Made by a program: the position numbers
Assembly (NCBI GenBank): GCA_963705695.1
Contig: CAVPKN010000026.1
Span: 16,138-80,137, forward strand
DNA: 64,000 nucleotides
Source of the DNA: an uncultured Chlamydiales bacterium
Lineage (GTDB): Bacteria; Chlamydiota; Chlamydiia; Chlamydiales; JAAKFR01
Direction of reading: 5' to 3'
Part shown: in pieces, positions 3,001 to 12,000 of the stretch
How the letters are laid out: every line of letters starts with the position of its first letter
Position numbering within the stretch: the first letter of the stretch is position 1

Positions 3001-6000
3001 CCCTTTGTACATTTTTTATGCCACGAGACACGTTGAGGTACCGAAGGAGGTGGCTCAAAAAGATCTGGAAGTTTTGGAAATTACCAACCAACGGATTCTC
3101 CGCAGTCCGAAACATATTGGAAGATAACTTAACTCTGCTCAGACAGGGAGCTCAAGTGAGCGAAACGCAATTAAATTCCACAATAGATAAAACCAACAGG
3201 GTAATCAGCAAGGTTCAAGTCTGTTGCAAATGTTGATTCAGCTAACTGAGCGGATCAGCCGCGTTTAATGATTTTAAGATCTCTATTTCCGGGGTGGCGG
3301 ACCTGAGTGATCGGGCCGCCACTTTTTTTCCAAGTAACGCGTCAGGAAAGGGATCACAAAGAGAGGCTGACCCAAAAAATTGTGATCAGCCCGGGGAATT
3401 GGTAGTGGTCTTCTGTGGCCCACTTTTGCCGGTGCTGCTCTAGGTATTTAAATGGCTCTCCGTTTAAATAGACCAAAGCCTTTGTGATCACCGCTTTTTC
3501 TTTCCCTTTTTTCATCTCAAGCCCCATCATCGCCGTCAATGGCACTCCTATAGGTATCCAATGAGTGGCGGGTTCGTGGAGGTGCTTCAGAGCACCACGA
3601 TCTAACCCGTTTTTTGAGAGGCGATTAGGGCGGCTTGCTGTAAAACCTAATGCGTAACAGTAATTGGCATCAAAATTGGTAGGGTAAGCACTTCTCCCTT
3701 CATATCCAAAGAAATGCCCGACAGGAGCAAATTTTCCTTTAAAACCACTGATGCACCAGCGAGAGCGCCCTTTTGGACCATTCAATCAAGCGGTTGAAGC
3801 ATGGCGATATCGTGAGACTTGCACATTCTCATTGAGGATCCCGATCGTAGAGAAGCTGCTCTTGTATTGCTTTTGGCAGGCTAAAAAGTTACGCTGGTTC
3901 TGGTTCCGGAGCTTCGAGTATCTCTTCCTTTGTTATGGCCGAGAAATGTGTTCAACTGGGAAATCAATTCCCTCATTTCGGGGATAAATTCGATCAAGCC
4001 CTCAGGAATCAAGATCACATTGTAATTCTTCCCTCTTCCGCTCTTCTGGCACAATGACTTACACAGAGTCGTTCGACAATGTGTTGCAAAGTGAGTTTTT
4101 TTCCGCGATATCTTCTCCAATCAAAACGAGATTGGGGTGGGTCTGTAGAGCACACTCAAGGGCGATATCGGATGCGGAGCGCCCCATTAACTTGATCACA
4201 TGGGTGTATTTTTAACTCGATTGGCATCTCGGCAGATATTGCCGATCAGTTCTGAATAGACCTTGCAAGCGGTGTCAAACCCAAAAGAGCACTCAATAAA
4301 GGCATTTTTTAAATCGCCATCAATCGTTTTAGGGACACCAAGGATCCGAGTCGCTATTCCCTCTGTTAAAAAATCCTCAGCAAGTTGCGCTGCATTTGTG
4401 TTGGAATCATCCCCTCCAATGATCACCAGACCATCTAGCTTTAAATCACGGCAGGTCGTACGGACCGCTTGGAGCTGTTCCTCTTTTTCGATTTTAGTTC
4501 TTCCTGAACCGATTAAATCAAATCCCCCTGTATTGCGATAATTATTAAGGAGCTCTTGTTCCAACTCAATGTACCGATTTTCAATAATTCCAGAGGGCCC
4601 CCCCTAAATCCAAATAGGCGACAACCGGGATGTAGCTTCTTCAAGGCATCGAAGAGTCCAATAATGACGTTGTGTCCCCCAGCGGCCTGCCCTCCAGATG
4701 ACCCCACGCCAACACGTAAGGGTGGGTATGATTTTTTCTCGTGAGCGGTCATGTGAATCAGAGGAAGCGTTCCGGTTTTTGGAAAATGAGATTTGACGGC
4801 ATCTGGTGCCGGCGTTATTTGTCCAACAACAGCTTCAATACCATCAATTTGAGTAAAAATCTGAGGAAGGGTTGGCTGATATTTTGCCCTCTCTTGTGCG
4901 AAAAGATTTTTCCATGCTTTACCCATACATGATTACAGATATTTTTTAAACCAGGAGAGTATCTCTTGAATCACCTCAGGAAAAAATGGGGAAGCGCCGA
5001 GGGTATGCTCCTCATCGGCAAAATGAATAAAGCGAGTATTCTCTCTATATCTACACGCCTGTTTGAATGCCTCATGGTGATTGATCGTTACCGTGGTATC
5101 TTTTTCCCCTTGCATCATCAAAATGGGGATCTCACCGAGATGATCGATGATTTTCCAAGCAGCCATTGTGCGGAACTGTTCCCGAAAGAGTGGGTGGAGA
5201 GCAATGCCCCGGTAGGAGGAGAAGGCTTGCATAGGGTCAACCTGAATATATTGTGGATTTTGCTTTAAAAAATCTCGGTACCATATCTCCCCGCTGGCAA
5301 TAGGGGCCCATAGGGAGATCGCTTTTATTTTTTGGAATCGAGCGGCCGCTTAAAGAGGGCAAGGGCTCCTCCTAAAGAGGCCCCAAAAAGAGCCATCCGT
5401 TCCTTGTCAATCCCATCGATCTCTTCCGCATATTCCAATACAGCAAGGGCATCGTGCAATAAATCTTCCAAGGAAAACTCCGATAGCTGCCCTTCACTAT
5501 CTCCCGATCCTCTAAAATCAAATCGGAGTGTTGCGGTCCCTTGCTGCGCCAATGACTCAGCCAGTTTAACATAACACCGATTGGTGCCGTGTTTGTTGCT
5601 CGCAAAACCGTGAAAAATAATGGCTAATGGTGGGGTCTCGCAACAGATTGGGCGGTGAAGGATTCCAAATAATTTATGATGCCCACTTCTGATCTCGATG
5701 CTCTCTCTTTCCTCTGTTTTTTCCAAAATGCCTCTCATACTAGTGCTCCCATCCGATATCGCACTTTTTATGACTCTATCCGTTGATAGCGTAAAAAGCC
5801 ACGCAAACTTATCCAATACATCTGTCACCTGAAAGTGGCATCAACCTTGCTTTCCATAAGAAATATGTTATCAGTTGTCAGCCATCGACCCCGCAATGTC
5901 AATGCCTCACGAGCCGCTGCCATTCTCTATGGTGACTGGGGGACTAGTAAAGCTTATGTGATTGGTCTGGCCTTTATAGTGGCCGGATATTCCTCATTTT

Positions 6001-9000: not shown

Positions 9001-12000
9001 GTCCCACAGGCGCTTTTGTAATCCTCATCTACTCCATTGTTTCCCGCTTTGGATACGAAGGGCTCGCTGTGGCGACCCTCATCGCGGCCCTCCTCCTCAT
9101 CATCATGGGGATCGCCCGCCTGGGACTTCTCATTAAATTCATCCCCAATCCCGTTATTGTGGGATTTACCACAGGAATTGCGCTAGTTATTTTTTCCTCA
9201 CAAATTAAAGATTTTTTTGGTTTGTCCCTAGGATACTCTTCCTCCCGAATTTTTTGAAAAGTGGAAACTCTATTTCATCCATTTTCCAACCCTCAATGCC
9301 GCTGCGACACTCCTTTCTTTTGCGACACTAGCGCTTATTTTTGGGCTAAAAAGGGTAGCTCCCCGTTTTCCTGGAACGATGCTTGCCATTCTTTTGTGCA
9401 CCTTGGCTACAACTCTTTTTAACCTTCCTGTCGAAACCATCGGAAGCCGGTACGGAGAGATGCCCAGCTCCCTCCCCTCCCCTTCCTTTCCCCATTTTAC
9501 TTGGGATCTTTTTCTCGAACTCTTTCCCAGTGCCTTTACAATAGCATTGCTCGCTGCGATCGAATCTCTCCTCTCTGCATCGATCGCTGATGGTCTTACC
9601 GGAAGGCGACACCGCTCTAACTGTGAGTTGGTTGCCCAAGGGTTTGCCAATTTGGGCTCGGTCCTCTTTGGTGGGATCCCCGCCACTGGCGCCATCGCCC
9701 GAACCACAGCTAACATTAAGCTTGGAGGAAGAACCCCTGTCGCTGGAATGATCCACGCTGTGACAATCCTTTTGATGATGCTTTTCTTGGCCCCTTACGT
9801 CACCCTTATTCCTTTAGCCACTCTTGCTGCGATCCTCATCTATGTTGCATGGACGATGAGTGAACTTCCCCGTTTTATTGAGTTATTAAAAGGGGCCAGG
9901 GGGGAGGCGCTCTCTCTTGTTTTGACCTTTGCTTTCACTCTTCTCTTTGATCTTACCATTGCCATCCAAGCAGGTGTTATCTTTGCTGCCATGCTTTTCT
10001 TAAAGCGGATGACAGATAAAACATCTCTTCGAGCGGTCTTGGCATTAAAAACAAGAAGAGCGACTCTGGTCAGGAAAACAATCCTATATTTGAACAGCAG
10101 CTCCCTTCTGAAATTGCTATTTTCGAGATCAATGGTCCTTTTTTCTTCAGTGTCTCCCATCTCCTCGACGATGCATTAAATCATATGCACGAAATCCCAA
10201 AATTTTTCCTCCTCGGTCTCGATAAAACTCCCCTTATCGATGCCACTGGCCTCCGCGCCCTCAAACAATTTCACCAAAAATGCCGCAGCAAAGAGATCTC
10301 CCTCCTCATCGCAGGCGCTCAACCCGGTCTTTTCCACAAATCCCATTTCATAGAGGAACTTGGGGAAGAGAACTTTTTTCCCAACCTCAAAGCGGCCCTC
10401 CACGAAGCCCAACACCGCCTCTCCCCCTCTCCCCATTCACTTCCCCTCAACCTTCCTCATCAATTCGAGTAGCATGACACAGGTTCGAGTAACAGAGATT
10501 GAACCCTTGTCTAATAATATGCACTTATTTGAAAGTGTTGCAGAAATGAAATATCAGGAATTCTCCTATCTCACAGAACAAGAAAAACTTGCTGACTACC
10601 TCAATAGGCAAAAGCAGTACGTTACCGATCAAGTTTTACCAAAGGCATACATTGCTCTGCACCAAGGACAGCTGATAGGGACATTTACCCTGAAGTTAGA
10701 AGATCTTAGCACCCGGACAGATCTTTCTCCATGGATTGGTGGCATGGTAGTATCACCGAAATATAGACGTCAAGGTATAGGTGCATTTATTGTGAGTCAG
10801 GCGGAGCATTTTTTCATGCAGTTGGGATACTCGCAGATCTATCTGTTTACGCCAGATAAGGAAGGATGGTACTCTAAAATGGGATGGCGTGTACTGGAGC
10901 GTACTTTCTTGCACCAATTCCCCATTACAGTCATGTCCAAGCAACTCTAATTTTTGGAAGTTGAAGTTCCTGTCTCTTCAATCAATTGCGAAAAAAAATG
11001 CAAAAGTCCTTAAAATAGTATTTAAGATGGGAGAATAATATGAGTCTAAGTGAAAACATGAGTATCTGAAATCACACCTATCTTCATTTTACTTCACCCT
11101 ATATGCTTCTTTAGTACTATTGGCGTGCTGCAAAGCCATGTTCTGAATAGAATCTCCCTTCCAAGATATGCCGCAGAGCCATTGCATTGTAATCAATTAT
11201 ATTAGAAGGTAAAGAACTTAAAGGGAAAAATTCCAGCTGTTCACATTTTTCAGGCTCCCGATTTTGAATCTCTCCTTGCCACGTTTGACAATCAAAAAAA
11301 ACATCGATATTTAGACGATTTGTTTTTCGATGCATGATATGAACGACTTGCATGAGATGAATATCGATCCCGATTTCTTCGCGGGCCTCTCGGATCATCC
11401 CTTCAGTTGCCGACTCACCGTCTTCCACATGCCCTGCCACCAAACCCCACATCCCATCGCAATAGCCCGTGTTCTTTCTCAAATGCAACAGAATTTTACC
11501 TTTCTGTTTCAGAATCAAATAGGCATTAACACTTGCACCTGTCCTCTTTTTCGTCTGGAATGCTAAATCTGTCATTTTTACCTATTCACAGTTTTTGCCA
11601 CGTATCCACTATCTGGTGAAAAGGAAATTGCGACAACAAATTAAATTGTTCGTTAGAATATTCAAGTGATAAGCAAGCTCATTGAAGGTAACGCTATGTC
11701 TGGTCACCATTTTGCCATTTTTGGTTTGAGTGGAGTTGGGAAAACAACTTTTGTCGAGGCGATCTGTAATGAAGCGGGTTTTTTTCAACCCTGCCAAACC
11801 GTGACACGGAAGGCCCGTCCCGATGATAAAATCGGGAAATATGAGTATGTGACAAAGGAAGTATTCCAAATTCTCAGGCTGGCGGGGGAATTTTTTATTT
11901 CCGATTGCAAGAGCGATAGTTATTACGGATATAGAAAAAAATGGCTAAAGGAAGCGAAATCCTTCTCGCTCATTCTTTACGGGATCCCTTCAAAATTGCA

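What the first reader, a model, noticed from the sequence alone, without database searches (positions are those of the whole stretch)
3354..10472. Dense run of inactivated core-type genes (pfp, hydrolase, permease tail, rlmN, sulP) beside intact multi-kb ORFs
Within 7 kb, five consecutive genes are broken. pfp has at least 5 frame changes, rlmN at least 5, sulP 2, and the alpha/beta hydrolase 1; the permease loses a C-terminal domain. Elsewhere in the window the SpoU/TrmH methyltransferase, the terpene-cyclase-like gene and two PhyH paralogs are also frameshifted. The same window holds uninterrupted ORFs of 5.4, 5.0 and 3.3 kb, which argues against a uniformly high indel error rate. Substitution-type stops (doc TAG) and an IS with a target duplication are clearly biological. 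On the other hand, several shifts sit at homopolymers: T7 at 4096-4102, T9 at 2156-2164, C9 at 43767-43775, and short A/T runs in rlmN and the cyclase-like gene. Homopolymer indels are also the signature of some sequencing chemistries. If the breaks are real, this is ongoing gene decay that includes a glycolytic enzyme paralog and an rRNA-modification enzyme.
Basis: partly seen in the sequence, partly recalled or inferred. Interest (0 to 1): 0.6.

Follow-up and report, generated by a model that had tools for sequence, protein, structure and literature searches.

The report
Frameshift-riddled genes, probably assembly errors
Five neighbouring chlamydial genes really are broken by about 30 single-base shifts, but the pattern of damage looks like uncorrected long-read sequencing error rather than genes decaying, so it should not be read as loss of glycolysis or rRNA modification.

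Summary
Against intact orthologues from related environmental chlamydiae, pfp has at least 13-14 frameshifts, the hydrolase 1, the permease tail 4, rlmN 9 and sulP 2.

The gene-decay reading is probably wrong for the dense breaks, for six reasons:
- Every lesion behaves as a one-base indel, or at most two bases.
- There is no clear nonsense substitution.
- Gene lengths match the orthologues within a few bases.
- All catalytic motifs survive in the corrected frames.
- rlmN shows no excess amino-acid change despite 9 indels (19 window-unique versus 18 sister-unique).
- Simulation requires at most 1-3 substitutions per indel. Even mismatch-repair-deficient bacteria give about 5, and mostly at homopolymers, which most of these sites are not.

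The shifts form two patches of about 1.3 kb at about 10 indels per kb, inside otherwise clean sequence. The nearest relatives come from Nanopore-only Microflora Danica assemblies. Unrelated contigs of that series show the same signature. In the window, an antitoxin is broken at an A9 run beside an intact MazF toxin, which is biologically implausible.

My estimates are about 80% low-depth consensus errors, about 15% real decay and about 2% recoding. Genuine disruptions also exist in the window: an IS256-family insertion, a broken doc gene and a missing flavoprotein gene.

The parts
3283..4926 (-). PPi-dependent phosphofructokinase (pfp). It is conceptually intact at about 540 aa but is interrupted by at least 13-14 single-base indels.
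   Evidence: Identity to the L001 orthologue is 66.7% in the corrected frames. The GGDDS, TIDGD, MGR and YEGR motifs are all present.
3383..4605 (.). Dense indel patch 1, with about 13 shifts in 1.2 kb. It lies inside pfp, and the first 300 nt of the gene are clean.
4933..5738 (-). Alpha/beta hydrolase (S9/S33-like, 268 aa) with one -1 frameshift at 5351.
   Evidence: There are no excess substitutions (14 unique changes versus 11-14 in relatives).
5739..5864 (.). A 126-nt intergenic junction. Relatives carry a 1.2-kb HI0933-like flavoprotein gene here, so this is a real gene absence.
   Evidence: the gene is present in L001, L002 and L003. (no tblastn trace in the window).
5865..7663 (+). APC-family amino-acid permease with a C-terminal Usp domain. 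The transporter part is intact. The tail from 7362 onward is broken by 4 single-base indels.
   Evidence: homologues are 590-616 aa and carry PF00582..
7362..8623 (.). Dense indel patch 2, with 13 shifts in 1.26 kb. It crosses the boundary between the convergent permease tail and rlmN.
7592..8707 (-). 23S rRNA/tRNA A-C2 methyltransferase RlmN (radical SAM) with 9 single-base indels. The CxxxCxxC and GGCGQL motifs are present.
   Evidence: Identity to L001 is 75-77%. The window gene keeps 105 of 111 columns that are invariant in 51 homologues.
8739..10472 (+). SulP anion transporter with a STAS domain. It has 2 single-base indels (9231 is +1, 10042 is -1).
2040..2365 (-). RHH-type antitoxin gene broken at an A9 run (2156-2164), directly upstream of an intact mazF/pemK toxin (1728-2063).
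   Evidence: Removing one A restores a 76-aa antitoxin whose TAA overlaps the toxin ATG.
16229..17597 (+). IS256-family (Mutator) insertion sequence that splits a Legionella_OMP-like porin gene. It is flanked by the direct repeat CCCGTATTGGG. This is a genuine biological disruption.
   Evidence: OMP profile positions 11-165 and 167-277 lie on either side of the transposase..
43767..43775 (+). C9 run that splits one 535-aa ORF into two (43117-43794 and 43787-44725). With C8 the ORF is whole.

Best explanation
The five genes are most likely intact in the organism. The frameshifts are most likely residual single-base insertion/deletion errors in a long-read consensus, probably a Nanopore-only metagenome assembly. 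They concentrate in two stretches of about 1.3 kb where read depth was probably only one or two reads, so random read errors were not voted out. Elsewhere in the window, where depth was adequate, only a few isolated errors remain, and about half of those are at long homopolymers.

What is shown directly:
- the lesion spectrum;
- the lack of excess substitutions;
- the patchy distribution;
- the same signature in other contigs of the suspected data series.

What is inferred:
- that the window comes from that series;
- that depth is low at the two patches.

The isolated shifts in the hydrolase and sulP cannot be judged individually.
For: 1. Lesion spectrum. All 29 mapped lesions are +1 or -1 nt; two could be -2. 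They involve any base and are mostly outside runs. The apparent in-frame stops in rlmN, and one in pfp, resolve into closely spaced shift pairs.
2. Length and motifs. Gene lengths match the L001 orthologues to within +5, -6, +2 and -1 nt. All catalytic motifs are kept.
3. No relaxed selection. In rlmN, window-unique changes number 19 against 18 for L001 away from the lesions. The window gene misses only 6 of 111 invariant columns, mostly next to lesions. The hydrolase and the intact part of the permease show no excess.
4. Simulation. With 5-10 substitutions per indel, rlmN should carry 30-60 extra amino-acid changes and 2-3 stops (P about 0). The data fit only 1-3 or fewer substitutions per indel. 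Published mismatch-repair-deficient E. coli and B. subtilis give 30,061 substitutions to 5,324 indels and 9,587 to 2,100, with mononucleotide runs as the hot spots (PMC8510543).
5. Patches. About 10 indels per kb in 3383-4605 and 7362-8623. Patch 2 crosses a gene boundary, and patch 1 leaves the 5' 300 nt of pfp clean.
6. Data source. The closest relatives (L001, L002, L004) are contigs of the ERZ250395xx series. ties that series to a Microflora Danica long-read MAG (MFD02923.bin.1.43). That project used Flye with --nano-hq plus one round of Medaka and no short-read polishing, and it notes Nanopore errors in lower-coverage MAGs (PMC12313526). R10.4 bins below 40-fold coverage still need polishing (PMC9262707).
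7. Same signature elsewhere in that series. In L084, mfd, sulP, an SBP_bac_5 gene and SapC are all fragmented. sulP carries 2 single-base shifts in L084 and 4 in L085, with no stops and no homopolymer context.
8. Implausible break. The antitoxin is broken at an A9 run beside an intact, translationally coupled MazF toxin. A8 restores it.
Against: - I could not identify the window's own record or its sequencing technology. The source proteins P0001 and P0121 lie on an 82,225-bp NCBI/ENA contig that is not indexed.
- No reads are available, so depth at the patches is only inferred.
- pfp has about twice as many lineage-unique changes at conserved sites as its sister (30 versus 13 and 17). This excess also appears in the frameshift-free 5' part, which hints at some real relaxation or faster evolution.
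- 17.6 kb of giant ORFs carry no error at all.
- Two of the four patch edges fall within about 100 nt of gene ends.
- Real gene loss does occur at this locus (the HI0933-like gene) and elsewhere in the window (the IS insertion and doc).
Confidence: 0.8

Rival explanations
1. The gene decay is real. An environmental chlamydia is shedding a block of metabolic and housekeeping genes (pfp, hydrolase, the permease Usp tail, rlmN, sulP). The frameshifts are true mutations that accumulated after selection was lost.
For: - The shifts are confined to a few genes, while 45 kb or more of neighbouring ORFs are unbroken.
- The permease transporter domain is clean, and only its tail downstream of the first lesion is hit.
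- pfp shows about a two-fold excess of unique substitutions at conserved sites.
- The adjacent HI0933-like gene is truly gone.
- The window holds bona fide disruptions: an IS256-family insertion with a target repeat and doc with an in-frame stop.
- Most shifts are not at homopolymers, so they are not the classic systematic homopolymer error.
Against: - The spectrum is one-base indels only, with no nonsense substitutions, no multi-base indels and no shrinkage.
- rlmN has 9 indels but no excess amino-acid change and keeps its invariant residues.
- The data require at most 1-3 substitutions per indel, against about 5 even in mismatch-repair mutants, where indels also concentrate in runs.
- Patch 2 ignores the permease/rlmN boundary.
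- The same signature appears in unrelated taxa from the likely data source.
Confidence: 0.15
2. The frameshifts are real but the genes stay functional. The shifts would be corrected at the RNA or ribosome level, by insertional or deletional RNA editing, transcriptional slippage or programmed frameshifting. That would explain why the encoded proteins look fully conserved.
For: The same facts that argue against decay fit this reading: conserved protein sequence, intact motifs, preserved length and only single-base shifts. The A9 run in the antitoxin is the kind of tract where transcriptional slippage is known to occur in endosymbionts (my own knowledge, not tested here).
Against: - There is no common sequence context or slippery motif.
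- There is no bias in the base inserted or deleted.
- The orthologues in L001-L003 and 51 RlmN homologues are uninterrupted, so the sites are not conserved.
- Nine to fourteen corrections per mRNA has no precedent in bacteria.
- Sequencing error explains the same facts far more simply.
Confidence: 0.02
3. The cause is mixed. The two dense patches are artefacts, but some isolated shifts are true young pseudogenising mutations or phase-variable homopolymer switches. Candidates are the hydrolase shift at 5351, the sulP shifts at 9231 and 10042, the PhyH paralogues, SpoU and the C9 run.
For: - Isolated single lesions are what young real pseudogenes look like.
- The C9 run and the runs near two PhyH junctions (G5 at 21801; A6 at 21469 with T5 at 21456) are natural slippage sites.
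- The genome does carry real disruptions.
Against: - Nothing in the sequence separates these shifts from residual consensus errors.
- C homopolymers of length 8-9 are the weakest case for R10.4 reads (PMC9262707).
- sulP in two other contigs of the suspected series carries the same kind of isolated shifts.
Confidence: 0.3

Closest known systems
Gene-fragmenting indel errors in long-read (Nanopore) assemblies, as measured by IDEEL-type tests and corrected by polishing (PMC9262707; PMC12007338)
   Same: Single-base indels split otherwise well-conserved genes into adjacent ORFs. The effect depends on coverage and occurs in Nanopore-only MAGs. Unrelated contigs of the same ENA series show it.
   Different: The textbook case is systematic error at homopolymers spread across a genome. 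Here most shifts lie outside runs and are packed into two 1.3-kb patches at near raw-read density. That points to local depth of one or two reads rather than homopolymer miscalling.
Pseudogene-rich genomes of recently host-restricted bacteria, such as Mycobacterium leprae and Sodalis (my own knowledge)
   Same: Runs of adjacent broken genes lie beside intact ones. IS elements and degraded toxin-antitoxin genes are present in the same region.
   Different: Real eroding pseudogenes combine nonsense mutations, multi-base indels, deletions and elevated amino-acid divergence. None of these was found in rlmN, the hydrolase, the permease tail or sulP.
Rescue of frameshifted genes by transcriptional slippage at poly(A) tracts in insect endosymbionts (my own knowledge)
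   Same: Conserved coding sequence persists despite a frameshift. One site in the window (the A9 run in the antitoxin) has the right context.
   Different: Of the 23 shifts first mapped in the finding, only about 6 lie near a run of 5 or more bases and 3 near a run of 7. Orthologues lack the shifts.

Membership tests
Eroding bacterial pseudogene | The reading frame is disrupted relative to intact orthologues. | tested here: met
   29 or more frameshifts across five genes, measured against the L001 orthologues and a SulP reference.
Eroding bacterial pseudogene | Relaxed constraint, seen as excess amino-acid substitutions at conserved sites on this lineage. | tested here: not met
   rlmN: 19 versus 18 unique changes. 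Hydrolase: 14 versus 11-13. Intact part of the permease: 28 versus 27-31. Only pfp shows about a two-fold excess (30 versus 13 and 17), and this is also present in its frameshift-free part.
Eroding bacterial pseudogene | A mixed lesion spectrum: nonsense substitutions, multi-base indels, deletions and length loss. | tested here: not met
   All lesions are +1 or -1 nt (two possibly -2). There is at most one true in-frame stop. Gene lengths are within 6 nt of the orthologues.
Eroding bacterial pseudogene | A substitution-to-indel ratio within known bacterial mutation spectra. | tested here: not met
   Simulation allows at most 1-3 substitutions per indel. Mismatch-repair-deficient E. coli and B. 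subtilis give about 5 (PMC8510543).
Eroding bacterial pseudogene | The lesions are reproducible in independent reads or assemblies. | not testable with these tools
   No reads are available. The 90%-identity protein cluster of the source permease has a single member, so no second assembly of this species exists in the collections.
Low-depth Nanopore consensus error | Only single-base indels, with the protein otherwise conserved and the gene length preserved. | tested here: met
Low-depth Nanopore consensus error | The assembly was made from Nanopore reads without short-read polishing. | tested here: inconclusive
   The relatives L001, L002 and L004 are Microflora Danica long-read contigs. The window's own record could not be retrieved. 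A 12-copy 126-nt tandem array and an internal IS assembled cleanly, which suggests long reads.
Low-depth Nanopore consensus error | The same signature appears in unrelated organisms from the same data series. | tested here: met
   L084 has mfd, sulP, SBP_bac_5 and SapC all fragmented. sulP carries 2 single-base shifts in L084 and 4 in L085.
Low-depth Nanopore consensus error | Read depth is low exactly at the dense patches. | not testable with these tools
   This needs the raw reads.
Programmed frameshift, slippage or RNA editing | A defined slippery or homopolymeric context, or a fixed edited base, at each site. | tested here: not met
   The contexts are heterogeneous and all four bases are involved. 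In the best-edit analysis, +1 insertions mostly fall in runs of 1-2 bases and most -1 deletions are outside any run; only two sites involve a 5-base run.
Programmed frameshift, slippage or RNA editing | The shift sites are conserved in orthologues. | tested here: not met
   L001-L003 and 51 RlmN homologues have uninterrupted genes.

The most novel reading that the evidence does not exclude
The roughly 30 single-base frameshifts are real in the DNA, yet pfp, rlmN, the permease and sulP are still expressed as full-length proteins because the shifts are repaired at the RNA or translation level. That would be a bacterial insertion/deletion editing or recoding system. It would explain why the corrected proteins show no relaxed selection.
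Probability: 0.02. Interest if true: 0.9.

Novelty: not a real feature. Interest (0 to 1): 0.12.

Why it matters
If taken at face value, this window would suggest that an environmental chlamydia is losing a glycolytic enzyme, an rRNA/tRNA-modifying enzyme and two transporters. That is an attractive genome-reduction story. The evidence says the breaks are most likely consensus errors.

The practical value is cautionary. Pseudogene counts, metabolic reconstructions and claims of ongoing genome decay drawn from unpolished low-coverage long-read MAGs can be artefacts, even where the breaks are not at homopolymers and long ORFs nearby are perfect.

The checks used here can flag such cases from sequence alone, without reads:
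- the lesion spectrum;
- the excess-substitution test against a sister orthologue;
- the bound on the substitution-to-indel ratio;
- toxin/antitoxin plausibility.

Tried and rejected
- Retrieving the source contig or an independent assembly. Exact-protein look-ups of two window ORFs and of P0001 found nothing on record. The cluster look-up gave no accession, and the source permease is alone in its cluster. The first genome scan with the window's own peptides found no relative.
I rejected it as the main cause: about 6 of the 23 shifts first mapped lie near a run of 5 or more bases, and many A8 to T10 runs sit in intact ORFs.
- A uniform high error rate. Rejected: 81% of the window lies in open frames of at least 150 codons, and there are no shifts in 44-64 kb.
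- Point-mutation stops. The rlmN TGA and the pfp TGA resolve into paired shifts when all three frames are read.
- Near-identical repeats in the window as an internal gauge of error spectrum. None is close enough; paralogues are 71-92% identical and differ by in-frame indels only.
- PhyH paralogue alignments. At 35-40% identity they are too divergent to place shifts precisely.
- RNA genes or tRNAs that might explain the ORF-poor stretches. None were found.
- A scan of JGI metagenome contigs for the same species. I did not run it, because no protein at 90% identity or above exists in the 15-billion-protein collection.

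
Full report
**What the region is.** The window comes from an environmental chlamydia-like bacterium with GC of about 0.42. 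Positions 3283-10472 hold five genes:
- a PPi-dependent phosphofructokinase (pfp);
- an alpha/beta hydrolase;
- an APC-family amino-acid permease;
- the radical-SAM methyltransferase RlmN;
- a SulP/STAS anion transporter (Pfam hits).

The permease search returned a 100% identical 499-aa protein (P0001) on an 82,225-bp NCBI/ENA contig. It also returned homologues of 590-616 aa that carry a C-terminal Usp domain. Contig look-ups for three relatives gave an intact, syntenic block of pfp, hydrolase, HI0933-like flavoprotein and permease (L001, L002, L003). L001 also carries rlmN nearby.

**Checking the observation.** I wrote a protein-to-DNA aligner that allows frameshifts and ran it against those orthologues.
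- pfp has 13 shifts plus a TAA, and at least one more shift near its 3' end.
- The hydrolase has one shift, at 5351.
- The permease has none in its first 498 codons, then four. The first is a +1 T that creates the TAG at 7362. The Usp domain is still there, out of frame.
- rlmN has nine shifts.
- sulP has two shifts (9231 and 10042).

The HI0933-like gene that relatives carry between the hydrolase and the permease is absent from the window without trace. Beyond 10.5 kb the window is densely covered by long open frames.

**Nature of the lesions.** Reading all three frames around the apparent in-frame stops shows that the rlmN TGA and one pfp stop lie in short out-of-frame stretches between two nearby shifts. 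The other pfp stop sits at a T5 run. With a lower shift penalty the total is 29 frameshifts and one stop.

All lesions behave as +1 or -1 nt; two could be -2. They involve all four bases, and most lie outside runs. Gene lengths match the L001 orthologues to within +5, -6, +2 and -1 nt. In the corrected frames the catalytic motifs of PFP and RlmN are intact.

**Is there a signal of relaxed selection?** I compared the window, L001, L002 and L003 at sites where the other three sequences agree.
- In the intact part of the permease the window differs at 9.7% of such sites, and the others at 9.4-10.6%.
- The hydrolase gives 14 unique changes against 11-14 in the relatives.
- pfp gives 44 against 17 and 22. 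After dropping columns within 5 of a lesion this becomes 30 against 13 and 17.

The pfp excess is about the same in the frameshift-free 5' part (8 versus 4) as in the rest, so it is not tied to the indels.

For rlmN I aligned the corrected sequence with 51 homologues. The window misses 6 of 111 otherwise invariant columns, mostly next to lesions. Away from lesions it has 19 unique departures from the consensus, against 18 for its sister L001. Nine indels have therefore come with essentially no extra substitutions.

**How unusual is that for real mutation?** I simulated neutral change on the L001 genes. With 5 or 10 substitutions per indel, rlmN should carry about 32 or 60 extra amino-acid changes and about 2-3 stops. 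The chance of seeing 5 or fewer changes is about zero. Only 1-3 or fewer substitutions per indel fit.

Even mismatch-repair-deficient E. coli and B. subtilis lines give about 5 substitutions per small indel (30,061 to 5,324 and 9,587 to 2,100). In those lines mononucleotide runs are the hot spots (PMC8510543; see also PMC10710837). A pure run of single-base, mostly non-homopolymer indels with no length loss is not what known bacterial mutation produces. It is what long-read errors look like.

**Spatial pattern.** The shifts fall in two patches, 3383-4605 and 7362-8623. Each is about 1.25 kb long and carries about 10 indels per kb. Only four isolated shifts lie in the rest of the finding.
- Patch 2 runs across the junction of the convergent permease and rlmN genes.
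- Patch 1 leaves the first 300 nt of pfp clean.

A uniform error rate is excluded. Local depth of one or two reads in an otherwise adequately covered contig would give exactly this two-regime picture: random errors persist at very low depth, and only homopolymer errors remain elsewhere. In line with that, about half of the isolated shifts outside the finding sit in or near homopolymers (an A9 run, a C9 run, and G5 and A6 runs).

**Provenance.** The closest relatives are contigs named contig_N in ENA analyses ERZ250395xx. One search shows that ERZ25039500:contig_19585 is the same contig as CAVVHU010000004.1 of MAG MFD02923.bin.1.43 (L004). The series is therefore the Microflora Danica long-read catalogue.

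That project assembled Nanopore reads with Flye (--meta, --nano-hq) and polished with one round of Medaka only. It reports signs of Nanopore errors in lower-coverage MAGs (PMC12313526). The same group showed that R10.4 bins below about 40-fold coverage still need short-read polishing, and that C runs of 8-9 are the hardest case (PMC9262707).

Two unrelated contigs of this series turned up in my sulP search and show the same signature.
- In L084, mfd, sulP, a solute-binding protein gene and SapC are all in pieces.
- sulP has 2 single-base shifts in L084 and 4 in L085, with no stops and no homopolymer context.

I could not retrieve the window's own record, so its membership of this series is likely but not shown. 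A cleanly assembled 12-copy 126-nt tandem array and an internal IS point to long reads.

**A biologically implausible break.** Upstream of an intact mazF/pemK toxin ORF (1728-2063), the cognate RHH antitoxin is truncated at an A9 run (2156-2164). Deleting one A restores a 76-aa antitoxin whose stop codon overlaps the toxin start, which is the canonical coupled arrangement. A live toxin with a dead antitoxin should not persist, so this shift is best read as a consensus error. It shows that the assembly does contain such errors.

**What is real.** Four features are not indel artefacts:
- An IS256-family element (16229-17597) splits a Legionella_OMP-like porin gene and is flanked by the direct repeat CCCGTATTGGG.
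- doc has an in-frame stop at codon 6 as well as a shift.
- The HI0933-like gene is missing.
- pfp may be evolving somewhat faster than in its relatives.

This genome does lose genes. That keeps the decay reading alive at about 15%, but it does not explain the indel-only spectrum.

**Verdict.** The dense run of broken genes is most likely a sequencing and assembly artefact (about 0.8). The hydrolase and sulP shifts cannot be judged individually. The finding is of low biological interest, but it is a useful warning for pseudogene calls in unpolished long-read MAGs. Read mapping would settle it in minutes.

Noticed in passing
window 1728-2365 (minus strand): A MazF/PemK toxin ORF is intact, but its upstream RHH antitoxin is truncated at an A9 run (2156-2164). 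With A8 the antitoxin is 76 aa and its TAA overlaps the toxin ATG. This is likely a homopolymer consensus error.
   Followed up: yes
window 15623-18001: A Legionella_OMP-like porin gene is split by an IS256-family (Mutator) transposase element (16229-17597). The element is flanked by the 11-nt direct repeat CCCGTATTGGG. This is a genuine insertional inactivation.
   Followed up: yes
window 5739-5864 compared with L001 4520-5710, L002 8853-10043 and L003 8021-9217: A 1.2-kb HI0933-like flavoprotein gene is conserved between the hydrolase and the permease in three relatives. It is cleanly absent from the window, leaving a 126-nt spacer.
   Followed up: partly
window 25840-30991 (minus strand), 51320-56743 (plus strand) and 57967-62943 (plus strand): Three giant paralogous proteins (1316+, 1807 and 1658 aa) combine PARP-like, ankyrin, DUF294 nucleotidyltransferase and TPR modules and look like effectors. 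The third has its N-terminal part in two extra ORFs (29984-30400 and 30404-30991), separated by a shift and an in-frame stop.
   Followed up: partly
window 61231-62916: Twelve tandem copies of a 126-nt (42-aa TPR) unit, about 90% identical to one another, sit inside the 1658-aa ORF and are all in frame.
   Followed up: no
window 43117-44725: Two abutting ORFs with no Pfam match fuse into one 535-aa ORF if the C9 run at 43767-43775 is read as C8. The N-terminus looks F-box-like (LPxELF). This could be a consensus error or a phase-variable tract.
   Followed up: partly
window 18297-23684 (minus strand): An array of four PhyH-domain paralogues. The outer two are intact (405 and 448 aa). The inner two are split by about 1 and 2-4 shifts, and two of the junctions lie near G5, A6 or T5 runs.
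   Followed up: partly
window 1000-1520 and about 2380-2480: A doc (Fic-fold) toxin gene has an in-frame stop at codon 6 and one frameshift. A second short doc-like remnant (FFLMINDYEP...) lies about 1 kb downstream.
   Followed up: partly
window 40600-41570: A SpoU/TrmH methyltransferase has its N-terminal roughly 35 codons in another frame, which indicates one shift near 40880.
   Followed up: partly
L084 1-8957 (ENA ERZ25039529 contig_89296): In this unrelated Microflora Danica long-read contig almost every gene across 9 kb is fragmented: mfd in 3 or more pieces, sulP in 3, a solute-binding protein gene in 5 and SapC in 2. It serves as a positive control for low-depth Nanopore error.
   Followed up: partly
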